Below the pieces are notes generated by a model. The model was not told where the DNA came from and ran no database searches. It saw only the letters and a program-made list of their open reading frames with translations. From a virus (taxonomy: Duplodnaviria > Heunggongvirae > Uroviricota > Caudoviricetes), in IMG/VR virus record IMGVR_UViG_3300012933_000331, positions 38,070 through 102,069 of that record: 64,000 nucleotides of DNA, one strand, 5' to 3'. Both the position numbers and the translations under genes were made by a program. The number at the start of each line of letters is the position of its first letter. Position 1 is the first letter of the stretch. Positions 1,161 through 48,269 of the stretch are shown piece by piece.

Positions 1161-4100
1161 TTATCTCCTAATAAGTTTTGGAGCTATTCCGTAAGTATTA
1201 CGCATAGCACCTTGAGTACTTGAGCCTGGACGAGCCATTTCAGTGCTTGCTGCTTCGCCAATTATGATCTCAACACGGCGGTTACCTTTATCGTCTTTGG
1301 TCTCTCGAGTTTCTGCCTGTGCAGTAGAATAGTTGTTAACAACTACTTCTGTGTTTCCGCCACCACTACCAGCTCGAACACCAAGGTTGCCATTGCTGTC
1401 ACGCTTTAGGGGCATAATAGCTTCTGGGCCGGCCTCACCCATTAGTCCTGTGCCTTTGGCAAACTTAAACATTGTTGGCGAATTTACGATTTGGTTGGTA
1501 AATGCACCACCTTTGGCAAATGCTTGGATACCGTAGTCAAAAGCGCCGCCTTTAGCAAACAAAGGGCTACCACTAGTGCCGGCGTTACTATTAGTGTTTG
1601 ACATACCACTATATCCACCACCTCCACCAAATACTGAAGCAACGGCACTAACTATTCCAGGCCTTACAGCATCATACATTTGCATCATTTGAAGTTTTAG
1701 CTCATATCTGGCTAAATCTGCTAAAAGACTATTAAATAGGTCTTTGCCAGATAGTTTACCTGTTTGTGCCCACTGAACAATAGCATCAGCCATACCACTA
1801 AATGCGTTTTCAAATATATCTGCATAAGCTTTTTGTCGTACGCTTAGCTCACCAAGTATACTTATCTGATCTTTTTGTGCAGCACCTTGTTCTTTGATTT
1901 TTTGAGTAGAATCAGTATAAAACTTTAATGCTGTAGCTCTATCGGTTTCTATCTGGGCACTGCGCTCAGGGGTTACATTTCCAGCAGCTATTTCGCGATT
2001 TAACCCATTAAGTTTAGTTGTGTAGTCTACAAGAGCTTGATTTAGCTGTTGTGCAGTATCAAGTTCGACAGCCTTTAAACTATTGATTTTTGTTTGATCT
2101 TCATACTGCTGTTGAGTAATAGTTCTTTGTGCTAGTTTTGTATCTAGTGAGTTCTGCTCTATTTCTACTGCCTGTTTTCTGGCATCAAAATCTAGATTAG
2201 CTGCTGCCGCATTATCTGATAGCACTTGACTTATTCTATCATAGTCTCTAGCAGTAGTTGCGACTAACAACGCTGACTTGGCTTCGGTTGCTGTAGTTGC
2301 TTCTTGTATGCTGAATCGAGCTTCGGCATTTTTGAGTTGTTGCTCATACATCGGTAAATCGATTTGAGCAGCTTTTAGCGCGTCTTGGCCAGCTTGGGCT
2401 GCATTACCACTAATACCATTAACTCCAGGCTTAGTTACTACGTCAATAACACCTCTTGTAGAAACTAGTGCTTGGCGCTCTGCTATTGTAGCCTGGCGCT
2501 GTCTTTCAGCCTGAGTTACTAAGTTAAACTGTTTATTTATAGTATCTGTTTGTTCTAGAGTTAACCCTTCTTGAGCTAACTGACTGTTTCTCTGGGCTTC
2601 TTTTTCTTTTATATAATCAGCGTCGTTTTTATTGTCTTGTTCAAATAAAGCTAGCTTTCTATCAAGTGCTGCTTTTTGTTCGTTGCTTATTTTATTTATA
2701 TCCAGTACCGCTAGTTGGGACTGCATGCCGGTACGTATCTGCTGCTGATCGAAGAAAGTGCCGCGTAATTCTTGCGGAACATCTTTTTGCGCTATTGTAC
2801 CTCTATAAATCTGCTCTTCGGCTTGAGCTAGTCCCAGCTGTTTAGATATTTCTGCTTTTTTATCTTCTGGCAAAGCGGAATTTTCTAATCTTTGTTCTAA
2901 AGATCTAACTTTATCGCTAGCGCTTGTTATTTTTAGCTGATTTGTAAGGGTATAGATTGCCTGAATTTCTTGCTTACGAATATCAATTGACTTGTTTTCC
3001 AAAGTCATCTGTGCTTGAATAGTTGCTTGTGATTTTGGAAGTGCTGACAATAGGCCCTTTTGTTGATCTATGCCTGCCTGTGCTGAAGCTGTTTTTACTT
3101 TTGCTAAAGCTATTTTAAAAGCATACTCCATAGAGTCAGCAGCAGCTTTCTTTAGAGTATTACCAAGTTCTGCTAAACTCTTTTTATCTGCCTCTAACTT
3201 CACAGAAATTGCATCTCGTTGTAGCGAATCGTAGGCCTGGGTATCTATATCATCCCAATAGCTTGCACCGCTCAAAGACTTAAGTTGCACTTCTGCGTCT
3301 TGAACTGACTTTGATAGTGTCTTGTAATCATCAGCAGCTGCTAAAATTTTAGCGGCCTCTTCTGGAGGGAAGGCGCTTAGCTTGCTTGTGTCTGCTAGTA
3401 TATCATTAAAAGTGGCTACTGCAACTTTTGGGTTTTCAAACGCCTTGGTCATAATATCAGACTGTTTTGCAATTGCGCTCGCATAGTTTGATACTACATC
3501 ATTTGGTTTTAGGGTATTTTCTAAGGCTGTAAATGCTGTGCTTACATTCTTGAAACCATCGCGTATTTGTGCAACGGATGCAGCTACGGCTTGGTTTTTT
3601 ACTCTTAGTTCTTCAGCATCTTTTGTTAGTTGTTTGAACTTTTTAGGGTCTATGTTTTCTAGTGCATCATCTATTGCAAAAAAGTTTAAGTCTTCGATTG
3701 AAAGTAGCTTTTTTAGCTTAGTTTCAAAGTCGCTTTTTAAGCCCGGATCATCTATGGTCTCCAACAGTTTGGTTATATTAGATGCCAAGCCTTTGGCTAC
3801 GTCATCTTGCTGTGATAAACCTACCAAGCTTTTCAAGCTTTCCCATACCATGTCCACAGCACCAGAAGCTTTGTCAAACTCCATGAATTTACCAACTAGC
3901 TTATCCATAGAATCCACCAAGCCAACAGTTGCATTTGCCCTGGCCATTAAGGATTCTGAAGTGAGTACGTTATTAAATTTCTCAAACGTACCTGTGGCTG
4001 TTTTAACTGCTTCATCCGACTGCTCAATGGCTGAGCCTAAAGCTTCTGCCTCTTTACGGTTTGTTGACATAGCTGAATACATTGTAGATAGTACACCCAC

Positions 4101-7918: not shown

Positions 7919-8359
7919 TTATATAAGTGCATAACGCACCTGTACGTTTATCTCACCAACACCAAAAGGATTTAGTAGTCCTTCGTCTGTGGTTATTGAC
8001 TGAACCAGAATCTCAGTTGTCTGATGCCCCTGCTCGTCATAAGTTAATACTCTGTTAGCATCTATGCAAGTTTCTAAGTCTGCTAACAGCGCTTCTAACT
8101 GTTCTTGTGCGTTATCTTCTCCACGAACATAAGCTTTTATGGAGATATTTAAAAATCCCCAAGTAAAATCACCAGGAAGATACTCACGCATCTCACTGCC
8201 AGCAGTTGCATAAACACAAGGAAAGTCTTCTACTTCGTCCCAAAATTTTAATTTTGCATAAGAGTTACCAGATAGATTGGTAGCATAAACACCAGTACCG
8301 TCTATGTCTTTGAACTTCTCACACAATGCTTTTACAATCGAGTTTCTTTTACTGCTCAT
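7919..8359 (-). CDS. Tail completion or head-tail joining protein.
   Basis: 146 aa; position in the module. Confidence 0.35.
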   Translation of the reverse strand: MSSKRNSIVKALCEKFKDIDGTGVYATNLSGNSYAKLKFWDEVEDFPCVYATAGSEMREYLPGDFTWGFLNISIKAYVRGEDNAQEQLEALLADLETCIDANRVLTYDEQGHQTTEILVQSITTDEGLLNPFGVGEINVQVRYALI

Positions 8360-10426: not shown

Positions 10427-12343
10427 TTAAGCTACGTAACGTAGAGCGGAAACTGCACCGCCTAGGTTTGTTGTAACTTGAGTCATGCCGGTACGTAGGC
10501 TAGCTACCATAACACGGCGTTGTGTTTCTACCAAGTCTTGTGTGTCAACACGCAGACCACGCTGGTTACCAACCAGGAAGTTACCTGGGTTGAAACAGAT
10601 AGCGCCCACAGCGTCAGCTGCTTTGTCTGCAAATTCAGCGCTTACGATAACTGGAGTGTTACCAACTGCACCGATTTGACCTGTTAACAGAGTGGCTTGT
10701 TGACCAACTTTGTCGACTGTTAGGAAGTTTGTATCTTCTAGCAGGTCGTAGTAACCTTCTGTGGAAACGATATAAACCAATTCTGAAGGATCCAGACCCC
10801 AGGCACCTAGGTCACGACGCATAGCTTGCAGTTTTGCAACTGTCATTTTAGCGGCATCAGAGATGTCTAGAGTAACTGCGCTTACTGCGTCGTAAGTTGC
10901 CAGACCTTTAACTGGATCGCTACCGGAACCAGCACCACGTAACATAGCACGGTCAACAGCGCGAGCAACACGGCGAACCATAGCGTCACGGATAACAGGC
11001 ATAATTGCCAGTAAGCTGTCTTCTTCTTCTTCGTATGCAACGTATTCGTTTGTAGCAACTTTATACGCGTTCAAAGTGATTTCTTTTAGCGCGTGTGTTG
11101 CTTCTGTACCAGCAGAAGCTGTTGAACCGAACGCTGTGTTAGCCATCCATGTAGCAACACCAGCTTCTGGGTTCACAGGAATAGTCATTACGTTGGTCTG
11201 CATAGTGATACCACGCAGGTTAGGGGCAACCACTAAACGACGGCGAACTTCGTTTTCCATGTTTGTGGATACTTCTAATTCCCAAGTTGCGCTTGGAACG
11301 TGAGCACCGTACTTTTGAACCATTTGCTGGCCAAACTTAGTACCTTCTAGAGCCTTACCAGCCATTTTAGCTAGGATAACGGCCTTTTCTTTGTCAGCAT
11401 AAGACATTTCACCGGCTTTGCCGTCTGTGAATTGCATACGTGACTTTTGGATAGCTTCTAGTTCAGCAGCTTTCTCTTTTAGGCTGGCTTCTAGACCTGC
11501 AACAACAGATTTAGTTTCATCAGCTTGAGCAGCAAAACGCTTCTCAACTTCAGCCAATAGTGCTTCAGCACCAGTTGTGGTTGGTGTTGCTAGAGCAACA
11601 GCAGCCTTGATTTTTGCGTCTAAGTCAGCAGCTTCTTTGTCAGCAAGTGCTTTTTCAGCAGCTGCTTTTTCTTGTGCAGCTAGCAGGGACTTAGTGGCTT
11701 GCTCAGCGGCAGCGGCCAACATTTTTTGTAGTTCTTCTGGAGTCATTTCCAATTCCTTTGTGATATCGCTTTTTGCATCGCCGGAGGCTTCTAGCCCTTT
11801 AGCTGAGTCGCTTGGGGTAGCAAATTGCATTTTGAAACTCTTAAATTCTTCGGCCGTTGAAAACGCCTTAGAAAGACTAAATAGTGTATTTTGATTAGCT
11901 GGCACAGACACAACTGATATTTCGTGTAGTTCCAGTTCTTTTACAACAAACAGCTCTAAGGCTGAATTATATTCCGCATCTACGATACGGAAACCAATGC
12001 TAAAGGCGGTTAGCACGCCGTCTTTTACAAGATTAAAAACATCCTCAGCTGCTGCAGAAATTCTTGCTTTTACATACAAGCCTTTCTCATCAACGCGGTG
12101 ATCAGTCATTCGTCCAACCGGTTCTGAGTGGTCGTGGTACGCAAGAATTACTGGATTTTTCAAATAATTCTTAATACCCGCTTCCCACACACTGGCTGGA
12201 ACAATGTCACCGTGTCTGTCAACGTCGTTGGTTGAAGCGTAACCTTCGATGGTCACACTATCAATCTTGCCGTCAGCAGTTGGTAGAGGTTCACTCTTTG
12301 TAAAAGAACTGCTAAAAAACAGTACTTTATTTTTATCTACCAT
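10427..12343 (-). CDS. Fused prohead protease, scaffold (delta) domain and HK97-fold major capsid protein.
   Basis: The N-terminal ~170 aa resemble HK97-family (U35) prohead proteases (…HGDIVPASVWEAG…ILAYHDHSEPVG…). The middle is an Ala/Glu/Lys-rich coiled coil. The C-terminal ~300 aa have a capsid-like composition. Confidence 0.65.
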   Translation of the reverse strand: MVDKNKVLFFSSSFTKSEPLPTADGKIDSVTIEGYASTNDVDRHGDIVPASVWEAGIKNYLKNPVILAYHDHSEPVGRMTDHRVDEKGLYVKARISAAAEDVFNLVKDGVLTAFSIGFRIVDAEYNSALELFVVKELELHEISVVSVPANQNTLFSLSKAFSTAEEFKSFKMQFATPSDSAKGLEASGDAKSDITKELEMTPEELQKMLAAAAEQATKSLLAAQEKAAAEKALADKEAADLDAKIKAAVALATPTTTGAEALLAEVEKRFAAQADETKSVVAGLEASLKEKAAELEAIQKSRMQFTDGKAGEMSYADKEKAVILAKMAGKALEGTKFGQQMVQKYGAHVPSATWELEVSTNMENEVRRRLVVAPNLRGITMQTNVMTIPVNPEAGVATWMANTAFGSTASAGTEATHALKEITLNAYKVATNEYVAYEEEEDSLLAIMPVIRDAMVRRVARAVDRAMLRGAGSGSDPVKGLATYDAVSAVTLDISDAAKMTVAKLQAMRRDLGAWGLDPSELVYIVSTEGYYDLLEDTNFLTVDKVGQQATLLTGQIGAVGNTPVIVSAEFADKAADAVGAICFNPGNFLVGNQRGLRVDTQDLVETQRRVMVASLRTGMTQVTTNLGGAVSALRYVA

Positions 12344-38177: not shown

Positions 38178-38490
38178 TCGTGTTCTTTACTGTATAATTA
38201 GTTCTTTAAATAATATAATGGCCCGTTTGCATCACTGACTTGCTCCCTAATGAGTTATATGCTTCGTAAAATGCGATTACCAAGGTAGTTGGTGGTAATT
38301 GTGGTTGTCTAACTTGAGGACTGTCGTCCAAGAGTCATAAGACTATATGAGCCACTTAGGGGTGGCCCTCATATATTAGCGTAATTGACGGTTCGGTTAA
38401 CTGGGCGGAAATCCAGTTGCCGTTTCGGTAGGTTTGACGGCCTGCGAAAAGCCATGCGTCAACATGGTAATATTGATTATGCTAATATAT

Positions 38491-38672
38491 GGGTCGGTAG
38501 CTTAACGTGGTTAAAGCGCAAATCCGGACTGTTCCTCCCTTCAGACAACGATCACCCTGCCAACCCTGCGCAACAGGTGTTCACGGTGACTAGCTCTGGG
38601 CTGATTTGCAATATACGCTTGTGGGAAACAGAAATTTTAGAGAAGTTGGTTCGAGGCCAACCTGACCCACCA
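38491..38672 (+). ncRNA. tRNA-like RNA of 182 nt. It has a perfect 7-bp acceptor stem, a D-arm, a T-arm and a CCA end, but the anticodon region is replaced or interrupted by a ~110-nt insertion. Either an intron-containing tRNA or a YrlA-type tRNA-mimic.
   Basis: Acceptor gggtcgg/ctgaccc; D stem gctt/aagc; T arm gttgg-ttcgagg-ccaac then a-cca. A candidate anticodon stem caaat/atttg (519-523 with 604-608) encloses an 80-nt insert, followed by a 36-nt 'variable' segment. The locus 38190..38800 has a promoter and no credible ORF. Confidence 0.45.
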
Positions 38673-38837
38673 TATTTAAACAGCCTGGCGTGGCCAGCGG
38701 TAACGAGACTGTGGCTCCGGTGAATGTCCACCTTGTTATGTCGCAGTAACAGACTGTTTAAATATGGGTTTAAAAATTTACACTTGTGGTAGTTGTGCTT
38801 TTCGAGTATAATTACTACTCTTTGAAAGAAACACAAC

Positions 38838-40128: not shown

Positions 40129-40203
40129 GGACGTATAACTTAACGGCTAAAGTAGTGGGCTTTTAACCTACAAATCAGAGTTCGATTCTCTGTGCGTCTA
40201 CCA
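40129..40203 (+). tRNA. tRNA-Lys (TTT).
   Basis: Anticodon stem gtggg/cctac with loop cttttaa; T arm cagag-ttcgatt-ctctg; CCA. Confidence 0.7.
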
Positions 40204-40318
40204 TATTTGAGCATATTAGCAGATGGCGTTCAACCACTTGTTTAATCCTTGCAAGGCAACACGTTTACGGGAGCAAAGTACAAGTTCCAAAAGTGGATGC
40301 TAGTGTGCTCAAATATGG
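40201..40318 (+). repeat. Conserved inverted-repeat element, copy A. CCATATTTGAGCATAT, ~85-nt loop, then TAGTGTGCTCAAATATGG.
   Basis: Homologous to the elements at 46631..46740 and 47075..47137. The G/C to T/A change between copies is compensatory. Confidence 0.5.
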
Positions 40319-40325
40319 TATTTAC

Positions 40326-40895: not shown

Positions 40896-41076
40896 AAGTA
40901 TTTATAAGTTTGACCCTAAGCTGGAGTAGTTCTCTAGTCCTTTACCAACGGCCTAACTAGCCTAGTAGTTCTATAGGCCAACGCCTCGGCTCATACTCGA
41001 CCGTAGTTGGGGTTAAACTTATAAATATAGACTTGATTGTACAGCCTATTTGTTGTATAATTATCTTTTACGCAAT

Positions 41077-42407: not shown

Positions 42408-42725
42408 TTAAATTAAAGAACTTAGTGTAGTGATTAGATTTCAGGTACTTCATACTATGAAACTACCGTTAAATTCGCAACATTCAGCAGGTCTTCGTTG
42501 CTCCTGCCTAAGTTTAAGGTAAGCGTTCTTTGATAGGTAAACGCTTCCAGCCCTGAACTAGAGTGTTCTCTCTGAGTTCTTTAATTTAGGTATAGTGAAA
42601 GAAACAGTTACTTCACTTCTAATGACGATGTCGGTGGTTCGAGTCCACCTAAGCTGGTCTCTAGCTTATAGCTCAGTTGGTAGAGCGCGCAAATCTCTGT
42701 TTCGCCTAGTTCTTACTTATTTACA
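42408..42725 (+). ncRNA. Candidate Y-RNA-like (YrlA-type) ncRNA immediately upstream of rsr. It has a long terminal helix and a tRNA-like module.
   Basis: An 18-bp helix forms between 42409-42426 (taaattaaagaacttagtg) and 42573-42590 (ctgagttctttaattta). A T-arm/acceptor-3' module ggtgg-ttcgagt-ccacc-taagctg lies at 42627..42656. It is followed by a tRNA 5'-half-like segment (tagctta-ta-gctcagttggtagagc…) at 42668..42700. No credible ORF; rsr starts at 42735. Confidence 0.4.
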
Positions 42726-42734
42726 AGGAATCAA

Positions 42735-44045
42735 ATGTCTTCGATCAATCGTGTTGTGCGTCAGCCTGCTACAAATTCAGTGGGTACGCAAGTATCCCAA
42801 ATTAATGCAGAACGTCAGCTAAAGCGTGTAACCATGGCAGCAATGTTGTGGGAAAACCAGTTCTATATGGACGGTAAAACTCATGCCGAATTGGTCAAAG
42901 ACCTTGTAGCCAAAGTCGCTCCTGAAAAGGTTTCGGCTCTGGCTGAGGAAGCCCGTACAAAGTTTAAACTTCGTCACATTCCTCTGTTGCTTGTACGCGA
43001 ACTTGCTCGAAACGGAAAAATGCAAGCACAAGCCCTAACCAATGTTATTCAACGTCCAGACGAAATGTCTGAATTTTTGAGTATCTATTGGAAGGAAGGC
43101 AAAACTGCTGTATCGAACCAAGTTAAAAAAGGCCTTGCAGCTTGCTTTAACAAGTTTTCGGAATACCAGCTTGCCAAATGGAATAAGAATTCATCCGCAA
43201 TCAAATTGCGCGATGTAATGTTTATCTCCCACCCTAAACCGCAAAATGCCGAGCAAACAGCGCTGTTCCAGCGCATTGCGGCTGATACACTTGAAACTCC
43301 CGACACATGGGAAACTCAATTATCTAGCGGCGCAGATAAGTGTGGTACGTTTACTCGTCTTATGACTGAGAAGAAGCTAGGTGCTCTAGCTTTCTTGCGT
43401 AATCTGCGTAATATGCGCGACAGTGGTGTAGCGGATTCCCTTATCCGCAGTTATGCACAAACTGTTGACGTTAGCAAAGTCCTGCCTTTCCGCTATATTG
43501 CGGCGGCACGTATTGTTCCACAATACGAGGATATGCTAGAACAAATGATGTTTCGCAGCCTAGCGACACATCAAAAAATTCCTGGAAAGACTGTTCTGTT
43601 GATCGACGTAAGTGGCTCAATGTTCGGTACCAGAATTTCCTCAAAATCAGATCTAGATCGCTTCGATGCGGCAGCAGCACTCGCTATGCTGTGCCGTGAA
43701 GTTTGTGAGGAAGTCGAGATTTATAGCTTTAGTAATAATGCTGTGCGCGTTGCACCTCGTCGTGGATTTGCTCTCCGCGAAGCTATTTCAAGCTCTCAAA
43801 GTCACGGTGGAACTGCTCTTGGCAATTCCATGAAGACTGTAAACAGCGCGAGTTCATATGACCGTTGCATTGTGTTTACTGATGAGCAAAGCTATGATCG
43901 CCCAGGTGCTCCTCGTGGTAAAGGTTACGTTATCAACGTAGCTGCCTACGAAAACGGAGTCAACCACCAAGCATGGACTGAGATCAATGGTTTCTCAGAA
44001 GCTGTAATTGATTACATCCAGGCATTGGAGCAGGAAGCTGCTTAA
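42735..44045 (+). CDS. rsr: Ro60 ortholog Rsr (TROVE plus vWA domains).
   Basis: C-terminal vWA domain with MIDAS motif VLLIDVSGSM…GGTALGN…CIVFTDEQSY, closely matching the Ro60 pattern (DVSxSM…GGTD…IVFTDNE). The N-terminus is TROVE-like. Confidence 0.7.
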   Translation: MSSINRVVRQPATNSVGTQVSQINAERQLKRVTMAAMLWENQFYMDGKTHAELVKDLVAKVAPEKVSALAEEARTKFKLRHIPLLLVRELARNGKMQAQALTNVIQRPDEMSEFLSIYWKEGKTAVSNQVKKGLAACFNKFSEYQLAKWNKNSSAIKLRDVMFISHPKPQNAEQTALFQRIAADTLETPDTWETQLSSGADKCGTFTRLMTEKKLGALAFLRNLRNMRDSGVADSLIRSYAQTVDVSKVLPFRYIAAARIVPQYEDMLEQMMFRSLATHQKIPGKTVLLIDVSGSMFGTRISSKSDLDRFDAAAALAMLCREVCEEVEIYSFSNNAVRVAPRRGFALREAISSSQSHGGTALGNSMKTVNSASSYDRCIVFTDEQSYDRPGAPRGKGYVINVAAYENGVNHQAWTEINGFSEAVIDYIQALEQEAA

Positions 44046-44428
44046 CCTACTTACCCACGACCCAAGCCTGTAGCCAGTCAGGTGTTATAAAGGTGGGGCT
44101 CTAAGCTAAGGGCTTAGAATAGCATATGGTGCACTAGTACAGTTACTTCTATTTGGTTTGAAAACACACTGTACTTAATTATTCCTATGTTATTCTAAGC
44201 CCTTTGCGCTTTTATCGGCTACTTCTAGACTCTTAATCTAACCAAAACACCGATAATACTTATTCAAGGGCTATTTTATTATTGCTTTGGCGATAGTTAC
44301 AGTTTCATCAAAAGTTCGATTCTTTTATTACGAGCCTATTCGTTATTCGCCAAGTGGTATGGCACCGGAAGCATATTCCGGGAAAACTCTGTAGCGATTT
44401 ATTCCAAGCACCTTACAAGGAAATTACA

Positions 44429-45803: not shown

Positions 45804-46274
45804 ATGCACAAATTTAACTTACAAGAAGTCAAAGACTTCATTAATGCTCAGTCAGCTGAAACCAAGGTTTACCTTGGCGCTGATAGCGAACGTGTTAAAG
45901 TTAATGGTGTATGGCACGCTGACTATACTCTAGCAGTTGTTGTTCACATTGACGGTAATCACGGTTGCAAAATCTTTGGTTCAGTAACTCGTGAACGCGA
46001 CTTTGACCAAAAGGTGTCGAAACCAGCACTTCGCTTAATGCAAGAAGTATATAAGGTTTCAGACCTATTTCATGAACTTTCAGATGTACTACAAGATCGT
46101 CACGTTGAAGTTCACCTAGATATTAACCCCAACCTAATGTACGGTTCTAGCTGTGTTGTTCAACAAGCTATTGGCTATATCAAAGGTACTTGTAATGTTG
46201 ATGCTCAAGTAAAGCCCAACGCTTTTGCAGCAAGCTATGCTGCTGACCGATTAAAATTTGTATTGGCTAACTAA
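45804..46274 (+). CDS. Hypothetical protein (156 aa).
   Basis: Track ORF. Confidence 0.5.
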   Translation: MHKFNLQEVKDFINAQSAETKVYLGADSERVKVNGVWHADYTLAVVVHIDGNHGCKIFGSVTRERDFDQKVSKPALRLMQEVYKVSDLFHELSDVLQDRHVEVHLDINPNLMYGSSCVVQQAIGYIKGTCNVDAQVKPNAFAASYAADRLKFVLAN

Positions 46275-46557: not shown

Positions 46558-46633
46558 GCCGGTTTAGCTCAGTTGGTAGAGCAACTCCCTTGTAACGAGA
46601 AGGTCGCGTGTTCGATTCATGCAACCGGCACCA
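46558..46633 (+). tRNA. tRNA-Thr (TGT).
   Basis: Acceptor gccggtt/aaccggc; D arm gctcagttggtagagc; anticodon loop cttgtaa; T loop ttcgatt; CCA. Confidence 0.6.
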
Positions 46634-46740
46634 TATTTTAGCATATTACTTGCCACTTAATGCATATATGTGGAGTAACGCGCGCACACCTTCCACGGGT
46701 AATCAGGAGCACCTGACATGGGTAGTATGCTAAAATATGG
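46631..46740 (+). repeat. Conserved inverted-repeat element, copy B. CCATATTTTAGCATAT, ~75-nt loop, then TAGTATGCTAAAATATGG. Its right arm is the 5' end of the tmRNA acceptor piece.
   Basis: Covaries with copy A (40201..40318). Identical 12- and 14-mers recur at 47077..47088 and 47122..47135. Confidence 0.5.
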
Positions 46741-47090
46741 TTGTATGAAGCAGACAGAAACAGGTTCTGGACGCGGGTTCGAGTCCCGCCAGCTCCACCA
46801 TAAGCGTATTTAAGGGGGTTCGAGTCCTCTCTATAAAACTGGTAGTTGTAAGTAATACGCTTTTGATGGGGCTGCATTTGGTTTCGACAGGGCAAAGAGT
46901 AAACAAGTAGACAACTCGGCAATGTAGAAGCCGTAGGGTTAGGGATTCCTGGCCGCAGAAGCAAAACAAAAATAAACGCAAACGATACACAGTTCGCATT
47001 GGTAGCCTAACAGCCGCCTAGGGTTTTGTCAGGTTTTCCTCGTAACAGAATAAACCTGACCCTAAACCAACATAAATTTTAGCATATTGA
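46721..47090 (+). ncRNA. ssrA: Circularly permuted (two-piece) tmRNA gene. The acceptor piece (…T arm, CCAGCUCCACCA) is at ~46721..46800, an intervening segment at 46801..46867, and the coding piece (GGGGCUG…tag ORF…) at 46868..~47090.
   Basis: The 3' hallmark ctggacgcgggttcgagtcccgccagctccacca ends at 46800, upstream of the 5' hallmark ggggctgcatttggtttcgacaggg beginning at 46868. Acceptor pairing ggggctg/cagctcc keeps G3:U70. The resume codon and tag GCA AAC GAT ACA CAG TTC GCA TTG GTA GCC TAA (46978..47010) encode (A)ANDTQFALVA, preceded by …gcaaaacaaaaataaac as in E. coli tmRNA. No T arm or acceptor follows the tag. A putative P2 pairing joins 46722-46735 with 47077-47088. Confidence 0.7.
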
Positions 47091-47149
47091 ACCACATATG
47101 GCAATCAGAGCCGGACTGTCGTAGTATGCTAAAATTTATGAAGGAAACC

Positions 47150-47737
47150 ATGAAATACACAAACATTCTCGACCCTAAATTGTTTCAGTCGGACAAATAC
47201 TCAAACAATTTCACCAAGCCAGTCGCACACATTCATGAGTTTTATCTTAGCGGGCCAATTTGTGACGCTGAAGAATACATTGAGTGGTTTGACGTTATTC
47301 GTAACGCATCAGCAACTGACACAATTCGCATTTACATCAATAGCCCTGGTGGTGACCTATTTACTACACTACAGTTCTTGCGAGTAATGTCGGACACAGA
47401 TGCTACTGTTGTTTGTAGTGTAGAAGGCGCTTGTATGAGTGCAGCTACCATGATCTTCCTACACGGTCATAGTCAAGAAGTTACTCCACATAGCTTGTTT
47501 ATGTTTCACAACTATAGTGCCGGAACATTTGGCAAAGGCGGCGAAATGTACGATCAGCTGCAGTTTGAACGTACTTGGTCAGAAAACTTTATGACTGAAG
47601 TGTATCAAGGCTTTTTGACACCTGAAGAAATCTCCTCAATGATGCACAACAAAGACATTTGGATGGGTTCTGAAGAAGTTGTCCGTCGTCTAACAGCCAT
47701 GCAAGCACAGCGTGAAGCTGAAGCAGCACAAGAATAA
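47150..47737 (+). CDS. clpP: ClpP-like serine protease (S14 family).
   Basis: …IYINSPGGDLFTTLQFL…VEGACMSAATMIFLHGH… matches ClpP signatures (INSPGG, GxAxSxAxxI). RBS aaggaaa precedes the ATG at 47150. The gene lies immediately downstream of the tmRNA. Confidence 0.65.
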   Translation: MKYTNILDPKLFQSDKYSNNFTKPVAHIHEFYLSGPICDAEEYIEWFDVIRNASATDTIRIYINSPGGDLFTTLQFLRVMSDTDATVVCSVEGACMSAATMIFLHGHSQEVTPHSLFMFHNYSAGTFGKGGEMYDQLQFERTWSENFMTEVYQGFLTPEEISSMMHNKDIWMGSEEVVRRLTAMQAQREAEAAQE

Positions 47738-47778: not shown

Positions 47779-47870
47779 GGAAAGTAATGCAGCGGGGTTG
47801 GTCCTGCGACTGGCCTTGAAAACCAGGTTCTCAGAAATGGGATGGGGTTCGACTCCTCTGCTTTCCGCCA
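47779..47870 (+). tRNA. tRNA-Ser (TGA), type II.
   Basis: Acceptor ggaaagt/gctttcc; D stem gcag/ctgc; anticodon loop cttgaaa; long variable arm; CCA. Confidence 0.6.
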
Positions 47871-47876
47871 TAAGAC

Positions 47877-47945
47877 AGCACACTGGGTGTGGCACATCCA
47901 TTAAATCAAGCTGGTTTGAGTCCGGCAGCCACAGTGTGCTTTCTT
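47877..47945 (+). ncRNA. Long irregular hairpin (9 bp, bulge, 4 bp) capped by a T-arm-like stem-loop gctgg-tttgagt-ccggc, followed by ttcttat. Either a tRNA-like minihelix or the operon terminator.
   Basis: agcacactg (877-885) pairs with cagtgtgct (932-940), and tggc (890-893) with gcca (928-931). A T-run follows. Confidence 0.3.
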
Positions 47946-48269
47946 ATGGCTATTTCATTTAAAAACATCAAAGACCCTAAACTGGGGATAACTGATACAA
48001 TCACATTTGGTAAACTAAAAGGTTGCCGTGTATGCGATGTAGCCCAAGATCATTACGAATACTTGATTTGGGCTGAAAAGTCCGGTTACGTTAAGTTTCA
48101 AACCGAGGCTATTGAGCTGATTCAAGAGCAGGCTAGTTTTGCCCGTTGGCAGATACATGAAGCCGAAGAAGTTGCCCCATACATGGATGGCAACAAATAC
48201 GAATACTTGGCAGAAATTGCCAGTCGTCAAGACTATGACACAAGTTTTGAAGATGATGTTCCATTTTAA
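47946..48269 (+). CDS. Hypothetical protein (107 aa).
   Basis: Track ORF 47889..48269 trimmed to the first ATG after the hairpin. Confidence 0.45.
   Translation: MAISFKNIKDPKLGITDTITFGKLKGCRVCDVAQDHYEYLIWAEKSGYVKFQTEAIELIQEQASFARWQIHEAEEVAPYMDGNKYEYLAEIASRQDYDTSFEDDVPF

What the first reader, a model, noticed from the sequence alone, without database searches (positions are those of the whole stretch)
46631..47137. Phage-encoded circularly permuted (two-piece) tmRNA with tag (A)ANDTQFALVA
The tmRNA 3' hallmark (T arm plus CCAGCUCCACCA, ending at 46800) lies upstream of its 5' hallmark (GGGGCUGCAUUUGGUUUCGACAGGG, starting at 46868). The two acceptor strands pair, with the Ala-identity G3:U70 preserved (ggggctg/cagctcc). 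The coding piece has an E. coli-like resume context (…GCAAAACAAAAAUAAAC GCA AAC GAU…) and a 10-codon tag ending in UAA, with nothing tRNA-like after it. This is the gene order of permuted ssrA, so far known from alphaproteobacteria, some betaproteobacteria and cyanobacteria. Here it is in a phage and placed within a tRNA array. The acceptor piece and coding piece are each bordered by copies of a conserved inverted repeat: ATTTTAGCATAT pairs with TATGCTAAAAT at 46635/46725 and at 47077/47124. These could form the inter-piece P2-like helix (46722-46735 with 47077-47088) or act as processing hairpins.
Basis: partly seen in the sequence, partly recalled or inferred. Interest (0 to 1): 0.9.

Follow-up and report, generated by a model that had tools for sequence, protein, structure and literature searches.

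The report
Two-piece tmRNA gene in a phage
This uncultivated T5-like phage carries a genuine, evolutionarily conserved circularly permuted (two-piece) tmRNA gene inside its tRNA array, but phage two-piece tmRNAs are already catalogued, so it is a new member of a known kind rather than a discovery.

Summary
ARAGORN calls a permuted tmRNA at 46708-47101 with tag ANDTQFALVA. Rfam tmRNA_permuted (112 bits, gathering score 47) and beta_tmRNA (105 bits, gathering score 84) both match.

Across 31 distinct homologues, the acceptor stem (G3:U70 in 31/31), the T arm and both P2 segments that join the two pieces are 97-100% paired, with compensatory changes. The tag keeps A-L-(A/V)-A through synonymous codon changes. 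It is therefore a functional gene whose two pieces must assemble.

It is not new in kind. A 2022 survey lists 53 permuted tmRNAs in phage genomes, and related Stenotrophomonas phages carry GenBank tmRNA annotations.

That cross-pairing is intact only in this window, and P2 lies elsewhere. They are two of at least eight structured RNA spacer hairpins in the tRNA array (33 G:U versus 2 A:C in the stems).

One modestly new point emerged. The tmRNA lies directly upstream of a ClpP-like protease gene with Cys at the nucleophile position. It is found there in 51 of 80 related viral loci, some only 16-30 nt from the start codon. This suggests co-transcription, which is untested.

Host and SmpB source are unknown.

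The parts
46630..46741 (+). The arms are 46630-46649 and 46722-46741. The left arm starts with the ACCA end of the upstream tRNA. The right arm ends 3 nt into the tmRNA acceptor piece.
   Evidence: 20-nt arms are 95% complementary and the MFE is -39.8 kcal/mol. Pairing is kept at 18-20 of 20 in L006, L007 and L008, with compensatory changes. The hairpin is present in 17 of about 27 distinct relatives. In 14 distinct orthologues the stems hold 21 G:U and 0 A:C.
46739..46800 (+). Acceptor piece, about 62 nt. It comprises the P2 distal strand (46739-46744), P2 proximal strand (46763-46769), T arm (46773-46789), acceptor 3' strand (46790-46796), discriminator A (46797) and encoded CCA (46798-46800).
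   Evidence: Rfam alignment. The T arm is 155/155 canonical with 2 compensatory pairs. P2 covariation is shown. The 5' end at about 46739 is inferred, not mapped.
46801..46867 (+). Intervening segment of 67 nt, removed from the precursor. Its ends (46801-46810 and 46854-46867) extend the acceptor helix. A T-arm-like stretch, GGGGGTTCGAGTCCTCTC, lies at 46814-46831.
   Evidence: Inverted repeat 46790-46810/46854-46874. The extended stem is kept at 18-19 of 21 pairs in all six aligned relatives, with compensatory changes such as AAGCGTA/TACGCTT versus AAGCACG/CGTGCTT. Otherwise the segment is not conserved, and its length ranges from 31 to 194 nt among homologues.
46868..47065 (+). Coding piece, about 198 nt. 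It comprises the acceptor 5' strand (46868-46874), D-loop-like UGGUUUCGAC, P2 strands (46888-46894 and 46911-46916), PK1 stem P3 (46915-46920/46930-36), an inserted hairpin (46937-46943/46948-46954), an A-rich leader, the tag ORF, P5 and a 3' hairpin (47028-47033/47055-47060) with a nearly invariant loop UUCCUCGUAACAGAAUA.
   Evidence: The acceptor stem is 217/217 canonical. P2 proximal is 97% paired with 7 of 7 pairs compensatory. P2 distal is 100% paired with 4 compensatory pairs. P3 is 98% paired, the inserted hairpin 99%, and the 3' hairpin 85% with 5 compensatory pairs. The 3' end at about 47061-47070 is inferred from relatives in which the ClpP start codon follows within 16-30 nt.
46978..47010 (+). 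Tag reading frame: resume codon GCA, tag ANDTQFALVA, stop codon TAA.
   Evidence: ARAGORN. Homologues encode ANDTQFALAA, ANDQVYALAA, ANDNTYALAA, ANDSVYALAA, ANDSQFALAA and others. The last four codons vary synonymously (GCA/GCU/GCC, UUA/UUG/CUA) while keeping A-L-A-A.
47071..47140 (+). The arms are 47071-47086 and 47125-47140. It is optional among relatives.
   Evidence: 16-nt arms are 100% complementary and the MFE is -25.6 kcal/mol. It is present in the window and L009 and absent in L006 and L008. The tmRNA-to-ClpP spacing falls into a short class (16-30 nt, 13 loci) and a long class (71-129 nt, 10 loci).
47150..47737 (+). ClpP-family protease gene immediately downstream on the same strand (an alternative ATG lies at 47138). 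Cys occupies the nucleophile position.
   Evidence: Pfam CLP_protease PF00574, E 2e-11. PDB ClpP chains match at E about 4e-5. The motif is GACMSAA with Cys in 67 of 67 phage homologues, and the His is invariant. The tmRNA lies within 2.5 kb upstream in 51 of 80 related loci.

Best explanation
This is a functional, circularly permuted ssrA gene of a distant T5-like siphovirus. It is transcribed on the + strand as part of the tRNA array.

The precursor folds so that the 3' acceptor strand (46790-46796) pairs with the 5' acceptor strand (46868-46874). Two P2 segments clamp the upstream acceptor piece to the downstream coding piece.

Because the CCA end (46800) lies upstream of the coding piece, it must be freed for charging. 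The 67-nt intervening segment therefore has to be excised. By inference, RNase P cuts 5' of G46868 and host 3' processing trims to the CCA. This would give a two-piece tmRNA of about 62 nt plus about 198 nt.

By inference from G3:U70 and A73, host AlaRS charges it with alanine. With SmpB, presumably from the host, it enters stalled ribosomes. Translation resumes at GCA 46978 and appends (A)ANDTQFALVA, a ClpXP-type degron.

The two inverted repeats are not part of the tmRNA. They are structured RNA spacers of a type used throughout this phage's tRNA array, and they probably delimit or protect processing products.

Shown here: the gene anatomy, the inter-piece covariation, tag conservation, and the RNA-level nature of the spacers. 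Inferred: processing, charging, tagging and any benefit to the phage. A plausible benefit is recycling of ribosomes stalled on damaged host or phage mRNAs during infection.
For: - Detection: ARAGORN permuted call with tag. Rfam RF04321 scores 112 bits and RF01850 105.4 bits, both above their gathering scores.
- Structure in 31 distinct homologues: acceptor stem 217/217 canonical, G3:U70 in 31/31, 3 compensatory pairs; T arm 155/155.
- Inter-piece helices: an unbiased scan of all column pairs ranks the two P2 helices top. One has 7 bp with all 7 compensatory, the other 6 bp with 4 compensatory, at 97-100% canonical.
- Other helices: P3, the inserted PK1 hairpin and the 3' hairpin all show compensatory changes.
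- Precursor: the stem extending the acceptor helix is conserved, with covariation.
- Tag: the family is conserved, with synonymous third-position changes.
- Distribution: syntenic in a large clade of uncultivated phages.
- Spacers: RNA-level hairpins, with 33 G:U versus 2 A:C in the stems.
Against: - There are no expression, processing, charging or tagging data for this or any other phage two-piece tmRNA in the searched literature.
- No SmpB gene is in the 64-kb window. That search used an E. coli SmpB sequence recalled from memory, and the rest of the genome was not available.
- The P4 pairing of PK1 could not be established. P5 is only 69% canonical in my alignment.
- The score on the beta model is far below that of genuine Thauera tmRNAs (105 versus 259-277 bits), so the RNA is divergent.
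- The host is unknown.
Confidence: 0.88

Rival explanations
1. The RNA acts mainly as a decoy. Its tRNA-like domain titrates host SmpB, AlaRS or EF-Tu and so inhibits host trans-translation, as proposed for the domain-only tmRNA of mycobacteriophage DS6A. It would not tag proteins.
For: PMC4131195 and PMC11915505 describe the DS6A tRNA-like-domain-only form and report that a similar molecule inhibits tmRNA. No SmpB gene was found in the window.
Against: The tag ORF, its A-rich leader and the resume codon are conserved across the clade. Synonymous codon changes preserve A-L-A-A or A-L-V-A. A pure decoy would not maintain these features. P3, P5 and the 3' hairpin are also maintained.
Confidence: 0.06
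2. One reading: the flanking inverted repeats pair with each other across the gene (46722-46735 with 47077-47088). This would form an inter-piece closing helix of the two-piece tmRNA.
For: In the window the cross-pairing is perfect, 11/11.
Against: - The cross-pairing reaches only 3-8 of 11 in five relatives, whereas the local upstream hairpin is 18-20 of 20 with compensatory changes.
- The downstream hairpin is absent from about half of relatives.
- L009 has both hairpins, but with arms that cannot cross-pair.
- The same hairpin type occurs between ordinary tRNAs elsewhere in the array.
Confidence: 0.03
3. The inverted repeats are DNA-level elements rather than RNA structures. The right arms (TGCTAAAAT, or TGTTATAAT in relatives) would be extended -10 promoters, or the palindromes would be operators or MITE-like terminal repeats.
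For: The right arms resemble TGnTATAAT. The downstream hairpin is present or absent like an insertion. The interior of one spacer is replaced in L005 while its arms are kept.
Against: - The stems show a strand-specific asymmetry, 33 G:U versus 2 A:C, expected only for RNA pairing on the + strand.
- In several relatives the -10-like sequence is lost while pairing is kept, for example GTTTTGATATGGT in L052.
- A transcript started from such a promoter would begin inside P2.
- A separate canonical promoter, TTGATT-17-TATAAT, follows one such hairpin.
- The exact motif is not a general promoter of the window.
Confidence: 0.1
4. The locus is a non-functional, host-derived ssrA remnant, for example captured during excision from an ssrA attachment site.
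For: ssrA is a common integration site, and fragments of it occur in prophages (PMC9004378).
Against: The gene is complete and has been conserved, with covariation, across dozens of divergent lytic-type T5-like contigs at the same position in the tRNA array. The closest bacterial forms, from Thauera, are far more distant than the phage copies are from one another.
Confidence: 0.02

Closest known systems
Permuted (two-piece) tmRNAs of phages: OM43 phage Melnitz, Stenotrophomonas phages Mendera/Moby/Marzo (Menderavirus), DLP_6, Xanthomonas phages JGB6, BUDD and XacN1
   Same: They are phage-encoded, ARAGORN-permuted ssrA genes placed among tRNA genes. The Stenotrophomonas and Xanthomonas phage copies also hit RF04321, and three of the four also hit RF01850 (BUDD hits RF04321 only). 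They share the acceptor piece at 81-86% identity and carry AND...-type tags. They are listed as 'Permuted' in Table S1 of PMC9004378.
   Different: - The genome background differs: a distant T5-like siphovirus known only from metagenomes, with no nucleotide match in GenBank phages beyond tRNA-like stretches.
- Melnitz's tmRNA is of the alpha type and carries a glutamine riboswitch. This one is of the beta type and has none.
- Here the gene lies directly upstream of a ClpP-like gene. That is not so in Marzo, DLP_6, JGB6 or BUDD.
Betaproteobacterial two-piece tmRNA (Rfam RF01850; e.g. Thauera, tag ANDERFALAA)
   Same: It shares the permuted gene order, the P2 architecture, the AND...ALAA tag type and a post-ORF hairpin with a related loop (CCUUGUUACCAAAGAA versus UUCCUCGUAACAGAAUA). 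It passes the model's gathering score.
   Different: - It scores 105 bits against 259-277 for Thauera.
- It lacks the model's terminal hairpin.
- The window-type variant has an extra covariation-supported hairpin inside PK1.
- Its intervening segment is longer and variable, 31-194 nt.
- It is preceded by a spacer hairpin where the model has a promoter-like TATAAT.
One-piece phage tmRNAs (mycobacteriophage Bxz1 group, Bacillus phage G)
   Same: They are phage-encoded ssrA genes accompanying large tRNA sets (PMC4131195; PMC12484599).
   Different: Those have the standard gene order, whereas this one is permuted.

Membership tests
tmRNA (SsrA), permuted / two-piece form (Rfam RF04321) | Score at or above the curated gathering threshold of the covariance model | tested here: met
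   112 bits against a gathering score of 47, E 5e-21, full model 1-213.
tmRNA (SsrA), permuted / two-piece form (Rfam RF04321) | Permuted gene order: T arm plus 3' acceptor strand plus CCA upstream of the 5' acceptor strand and tag ORF | tested here: met
   The CCA ends at 46800, G1 is at 46868 and the ORF occupies 46978-47010.
tmRNA (SsrA), permuted / two-piece form (Rfam RF04321) | tRNA-Ala-like acceptor: 7-bp stem with G3:U70, discriminator A73 and a CCA end | tested here: met
   The stem is 217/217 canonical and G3:U70 is present in 31 of 31 homologues, with covariation at pairs 4:69, 5:68 and 6:67. ACCA is encoded.
tmRNA (SsrA), permuted / two-piece form (Rfam RF04321) | Inter-piece P2 helix holding the acceptor and coding pieces together | tested here: met
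   46739-44/46911-16 is 100% paired with 4 compensatory pairs. 46763-69/46888-94 is 97% paired with 7 compensatory pairs. These are the top signals in an unbiased scan.
tmRNA (SsrA), permuted / two-piece form (Rfam RF04321) | Tag reading frame with an Ala resume codon and a hydrophobic C-terminal degron followed by a stop codon | tested here: met
   The tag is ANDTQFALVA*. Homologues end in ALAA or ALVA, with synonymous codon variation.
tmRNA (SsrA), permuted / two-piece form (Rfam RF04321) | Pseudoknot PK1 upstream of the resume codon | tested here: inconclusive
   The P3 stem is supported (98% paired, 3 compensatory pairs), as is an inserted hairpin. I could not establish the P4 pairing that would close the pseudoknot.
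tmRNA (SsrA), permuted / two-piece form (Rfam RF04321) | Processing into two RNAs, alanylation, SmpB-dependent trans-translation | not testable with these tools
   This needs RNA mapping and biochemistry. No SmpB homologue was found in the window by tblastn (query recalled from memory), so a host SmpB is presumed.
Betaproteobacteria-type two-piece tmRNA (Rfam RF01850) | Gathering score reached, with the clade-specific 5' and 3' extensions modelled | tested here: inconclusive
   The score is 105.4 bits against a gathering score of 84, so the threshold is met. The terminal hairpin of the model is deleted, four P2b pairs are non-canonical, and genuine members score 259-277 bits. It is related but divergent.
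ClpP (peptidase S14), for the linked downstream gene | Ser-His-Asp catalytic triad | tested here: not met
   The nucleophile position is Cys in 67 of 67 phage homologues (GACMSAA versus AASMG). The His is invariant and the Asp aligns in the PDB comparison. The fold family is met (Pfam PF00574, E 2e-11), but it should be called ClpP-like, not ClpP.

The most novel reading that the evidence does not exclude
The tmRNA and the adjacent Cys-nucleophile ClpP-like gene form a co-transcribed, phage-encoded 'tag-and-degrade' module. The phage would supply both the degron-adding RNA and a dedicated proteolytic core, to clear stalled-ribosome products or to redirect host ClpX during infection. The array-wide spacer hairpins would be the processing signals that release each RNA from one long transcript.
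Probability: 0.15. Interest if true: 0.6.

Novelty: new member of a known kind. Interest (0 to 1): 0.3.

Why it matters
The finding extends the catalogue of phage two-piece tmRNAs to a large, uncultivated T5-like clade. It also provides a covariation-supported secondary structure for that clade.

It does not open a new category. Standard tools (ARAGORN, Rfam) find the gene at once, and phage permuted tmRNAs were surveyed in 2022.

Two points could be worth an experiment:
- The recurrent tmRNA-ClpP-like gene pair, in places too close together for a separate promoter.
- The conserved RNA spacer hairpins that join the CCA end of one RNA gene to the 5' end of the next.

No phage two-piece tmRNA has yet been shown to be processed, charged or used.

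Tried and rejected
- Promoter reading of the right arms (TGCTAAAAT as an extended -10). I rejected it as the main explanation. The exact motif is confined to the tmRNA flanks, the arms covary, and G:U far outnumbers A:C in the stems.
- Cross-pairing of the two repeats as an inter-piece helix. It is not conserved.
- SmpB in the window. tblastn with E. coli SmpB, recalled from memory, found nothing. The rest of the genome was not available.
- Source and host of the window. The exact portal protein is not on record. No GenBank phage matches at the nucleotide level, so the host stays unknown.
- Bacterial donor. The single genome-contig scan returned only Thauera-type beta tmRNAs and Paraglaciecola one-piece tmRNAs that share the conserved 3' end. 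No close bacterial source was found.
- Sharkady & Williams 2004 (PMC516066), the paper describing the beta two-piece structure, is not held. The supplements of the tmRNA database paper held nothing on phages.
- PK1. I could not find a consistently supported P4 pairing.
- A possible 3' pseudoknot, AGGG 47020-23 with UCCU 47037-40. It is 93% paired, but the slide controls reach about 70%, so I left it as ambiguous.

Full report
**Observation.**
- GGACGCGGGTTCGAGTCCCGCCAGCTCCACCA ends at 46800.
- GGGGCTGCATTTGGTTTCGACAGGG starts at 46868.
- The frame GCA AAC GAT ACA CAG TTC GCA TTG GTA GCC TAA occupies 46978-47010.

ARAGORN reports a permuted tmRNA (tmRNA*) at 46708-47101 with tag ANDTQFALVA*, embedded among 25 tRNA genes between 36991 and 51476. 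Rfam reports RF04321 tmRNA_permuted at 112 bits (gathering score 47, E 5e-21). It also reports RF01850 beta_tmRNA at 105.4 bits (gathering score 84, E 5e-31).

**The genome.** The window encodes a portal, a large terminase, a DnaB-like helicase and a T5 p143-like tail protein. It also encodes a prohead protease-major head fusion about 37% identical to Aeromonas, Vibrio and Escherichia T5-like phages. No GenBank phage matches at the nucleotide level beyond tRNA-like stretches. So this is an uncultivated, distant T5-like siphovirus. Its host and source remain unknown; an exact-protein look-up found nothing.

**Evidence that it is a functional gene whose pieces assemble.**

*Relatives.* A 25-mer from the coding piece retrieved five IMG/VR contigs. 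All have a syntenic tRNA array and a permuted tmRNA at the same place. Searching with the downstream protein retrieved 165 related viral loci, of which 80 were fetched. From these, four GenBank phages and two Thauera genomes, I assembled 31 distinct 'mature-like' sequences.

*Helices.*
- Acceptor stem: 217/217 canonical, G3:U70 in 31/31, compensatory changes at three pairs.
- T arm: 155/155 canonical.
- Unbiased scan: a scan over all column pairs ranked the two inter-piece P2 helices first. These are 46763-46769/46888-46894 (7 bp, all seven with compensatory changes, 97% canonical) and 46739-46744/46911-46916 (6 bp, four compensatory, 100%).
- Local hairpins: the P3 stem of PK1 (98%), an extra hairpin inserted in PK1 (99%) and the 3' hairpin (85%, five compensatory pairs) are supported. 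P5 is weak at 69%, and the P4 pairing of PK1 could not be established.

*Tag.* The tag family (ANDTQFALVA, ANDTQFALAA, ANDQVYALAA, ANDNTYALAA, ANDSVYALAA, ANDSQFALAA and others) keeps A-L-(A/V)-A through synonymous codon changes. This indicates selection on the encoded peptide.

*Two-piece logic.* Covariation across the two pieces rules out 'two unrelated RNAs'. The CCA end lies upstream of the coding piece, and it must be free for aminoacylation. Cleavage into two pieces is therefore a logical requirement. This rests on established tmRNA biology and was not shown here.

**The precursor.** The acceptor helix continues into the 67-nt intervening segment, pairing 46801-46810 with 46854-46867. 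That extension is conserved at 18-19 of 21 pairs with compensatory changes, while the rest of the segment is not conserved. Its length ranges from 31 to 194 nt. My estimates for the mature pieces are about 62 nt (46739-46800) and about 198 nt (46868 to about 47065).

**The inverted repeats.** They are real. The exact 11-mer occurs four times in the window, and all four copies flank the tmRNA. The arms are 46630-46649/46722-46741 and 47071-47086/47125-47140.

The proposed inter-piece helix fails the comparative test. Cross-pairing is 11/11 in the window but only 3-8 of 11 in five relatives. By contrast, the local upstream hairpin is 18-20 of 20 in L006, L007 and L008, with compensatory changes.

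The upstream hairpin is present in 17 of about 27 distinct relatives. It always starts at the ACCA of the upstream tRNA and ends 3 nt into the acceptor piece. The downstream hairpin is optional. The distance from the tmRNA to the ClpP start codon is either 16-30 nt (13 loci) or 71-129 nt (10 loci).

These hairpins are not specific to the tmRNA. At least eight hairpins of the same style (16-23 bp stems, 38-90 nt interiors, MFE -25 to -50 kcal/mol) separate RNA genes across the array. They are conserved at the same positions in relatives.

Their stems contain 33 G:U but only 2 A:C oppositions. This asymmetry is expected for RNA pairing on the + strand, and not for a DNA palindrome or promoter. 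I therefore read them as structured RNA spacers, most likely processing or end-protecting elements. Which nuclease acts on them is unknown.

**Comparison with what is known.** Phage tmRNAs have been known for years; examples are the Bxz1-type mycobacteriophages and Bacillus phage G (PMC4131195). PMC9004378 (2022) describes the two-piece tmRNA of phage Melnitz. It counts 53 ARAGORN-permuted tmRNAs among 133 unique phage tmRNAs, with Mendera, Moby, XacN1 and Ccr29 listed as permuted.

The acceptor piece here is 81-86% identical to those of Stenotrophomonas phages (Menderavirus, DLP_6) and Xanthomonas phages (JGB6, BUDD). All four fetched loci are permuted by ARAGORN and RF04321. Three also pass RF01850, and some are annotated tmRNA in GenBank.

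Canonical beta-type tmRNAs from Thauera score 259-277 bits on RF01850. The phage RNA is thus a divergent relative. It lacks the model's terminal hairpin and, in this variant, has an extra PK1 hairpin.

**The one modestly new point.** The gene immediately downstream, 47150-47737, is ClpP-family: Pfam PF00574 at E 2e-11, and PDB ClpP chains at E about 4e-5. The nucleophile position is Cys in all 67 distinct phage homologues, and the His is invariant (the E. coli reference sequence was recalled from memory, but the PDB alignment agrees).

A permuted tmRNA lies within 2.5 kb upstream on the same strand in 51 of 80 related loci: 38 by ARAGORN and 13 more by nhmmer. These include all 24 loci L020-L043. 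In the short-spacing class there is no room for a separate promoter. Co-transcription is therefore likely, but this is an inference.

ClpP-like genes are, however, common accessory genes of large phages, and 29 of the 80 loci show no tmRNA in the fetched flank. A functional tag-and-degrade coupling therefore remains speculative. I found no paper describing this linkage.

**Limits.** There are no expression or biochemical data. No SmpB was found in the window. The host is unknown. The related loci are not phylogenetically independent.

**Verdict.** This is a correct and well-supported identification of a two-piece tmRNA gene. It is a new member of a known kind, with a refuted structural side-proposal and two side observations worth modest follow-up.

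Noticed in passing
window 47150-47737 (+); L020-L099: A ClpP-family gene lies directly downstream of the tmRNA. Cys replaces the catalytic Ser (GACMSAA) in all 67 distinct phage homologues, and the His is invariant. A tmRNA lies within 2.5 kb upstream in 51 of 80 related viral loci, in some cases only 16-30 nt from the start codon.
   Followed up: yes
window 38370-38491, 38670-38767, 40199-40320, 40899-41027, 44105-44207, 46630-46741, 47071-47140, 47867-47950: A class of long-stem RNA spacer hairpins (16-23 bp stems) lies between RNA genes of the tRNA array. Most run from the upstream tRNA's ACCA to just before the next gene. They are conserved in relatives, and G:U far outnumbers A:C in their stems. 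Their function is unknown, and they match no Rfam family.
   Followed up: partly
window 42601-42706 (+) and 42735-44045 (+): A Ro60/TROVE-vWA protein gene (Pfam TROVE, vWA_Ro60) is preceded by a weak YrlA (Y RNA-like, RF02553) match of 35 bits, below the gathering score of 69. The tRNA-like module of the model aligns well. This suggests a phage Ro60-Y RNA module inside the tRNA array.
   Followed up: partly
window 46558-46633 (+): ARAGORN calls this tRNA-Tyr(gta), but it is the homologue of tRNA-Thr(tgt) in L006, L007 and L008. In the window its anticodon stem is weakened (ACTCC/CGAGA, 3 bp), giving an effectively 9-nt loop around CUUGUAA. It may be a degenerating or unusual tRNA.
   Followed up: partly
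window 46814-46831 (+): A T-arm-like stretch, GGGGGTTCGAGTCCTCTC, lies inside the tmRNA intervening segment. It is present only in the window and not in the aligned relatives, and may be a remnant of a tRNA or tmRNA duplication.
   Followed up: partly
window 47779-47866 (+): A long-variable-arm tRNA-like sequence gives a weak RF01852 tRNA-Sec match (34.6 bits, below the gathering score). ARAGORN missed it. It overlaps a mechanical ORF and is followed directly by a spacer hairpin.
   Followed up: no
window 38492-38672 (+): Between two spacer hairpins the sequence starts like a tRNA 5' half (GGTCGGTAGCTTAACG...) and ends like a T arm plus acceptor end (...TTCGAGGCCAACCTGACCCACCA), about 180 nt apart. 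It could be an interrupted or intron-containing tRNA. No tool calls it.
   Followed up: no
L009 about 1210-1290 (-), L006 about 8190-8240 (+), L008 (intervening segment): The motif ATGAAAGAAACCTCTGAGGGCT recurs in different contexts. It lies in the loop of the upstream spacer hairpin in L009 and L005, and in the tmRNA intervening segment in L006 and L008.
   Followed up: no
window about 41033-41061 (+): A canonical sigma-70 promoter, TTGATT-17-TATAAT, lies just after the tRNA-Phe spacer hairpin and about 15 nt before tRNA-Glu. The array therefore seems to have internal promoters that are separate from the hairpins.
   Followed up: no
window 45804-46274 (+): An RNaseH_like (PF04308, E 2e-17) protein gene is embedded in the tRNA array about 450 nt upstream of the tmRNA. 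It is a candidate RNA-processing factor but was not examined.
   Followed up: no
window 10427-12343 (-): The prohead protease and major head protein appear fused into one 638-aa ORF. In T5-like relatives the match spans two separate genes.
   Followed up: no
L038 (IMGVR_UViG_3300022747_000019): One relative encodes ACCG instead of ACCA at the tmRNA 3' end, with tag ANESVYALAA. This could be a sequencing variant, or a copy that depends on CCA repair.
   Followed up: no
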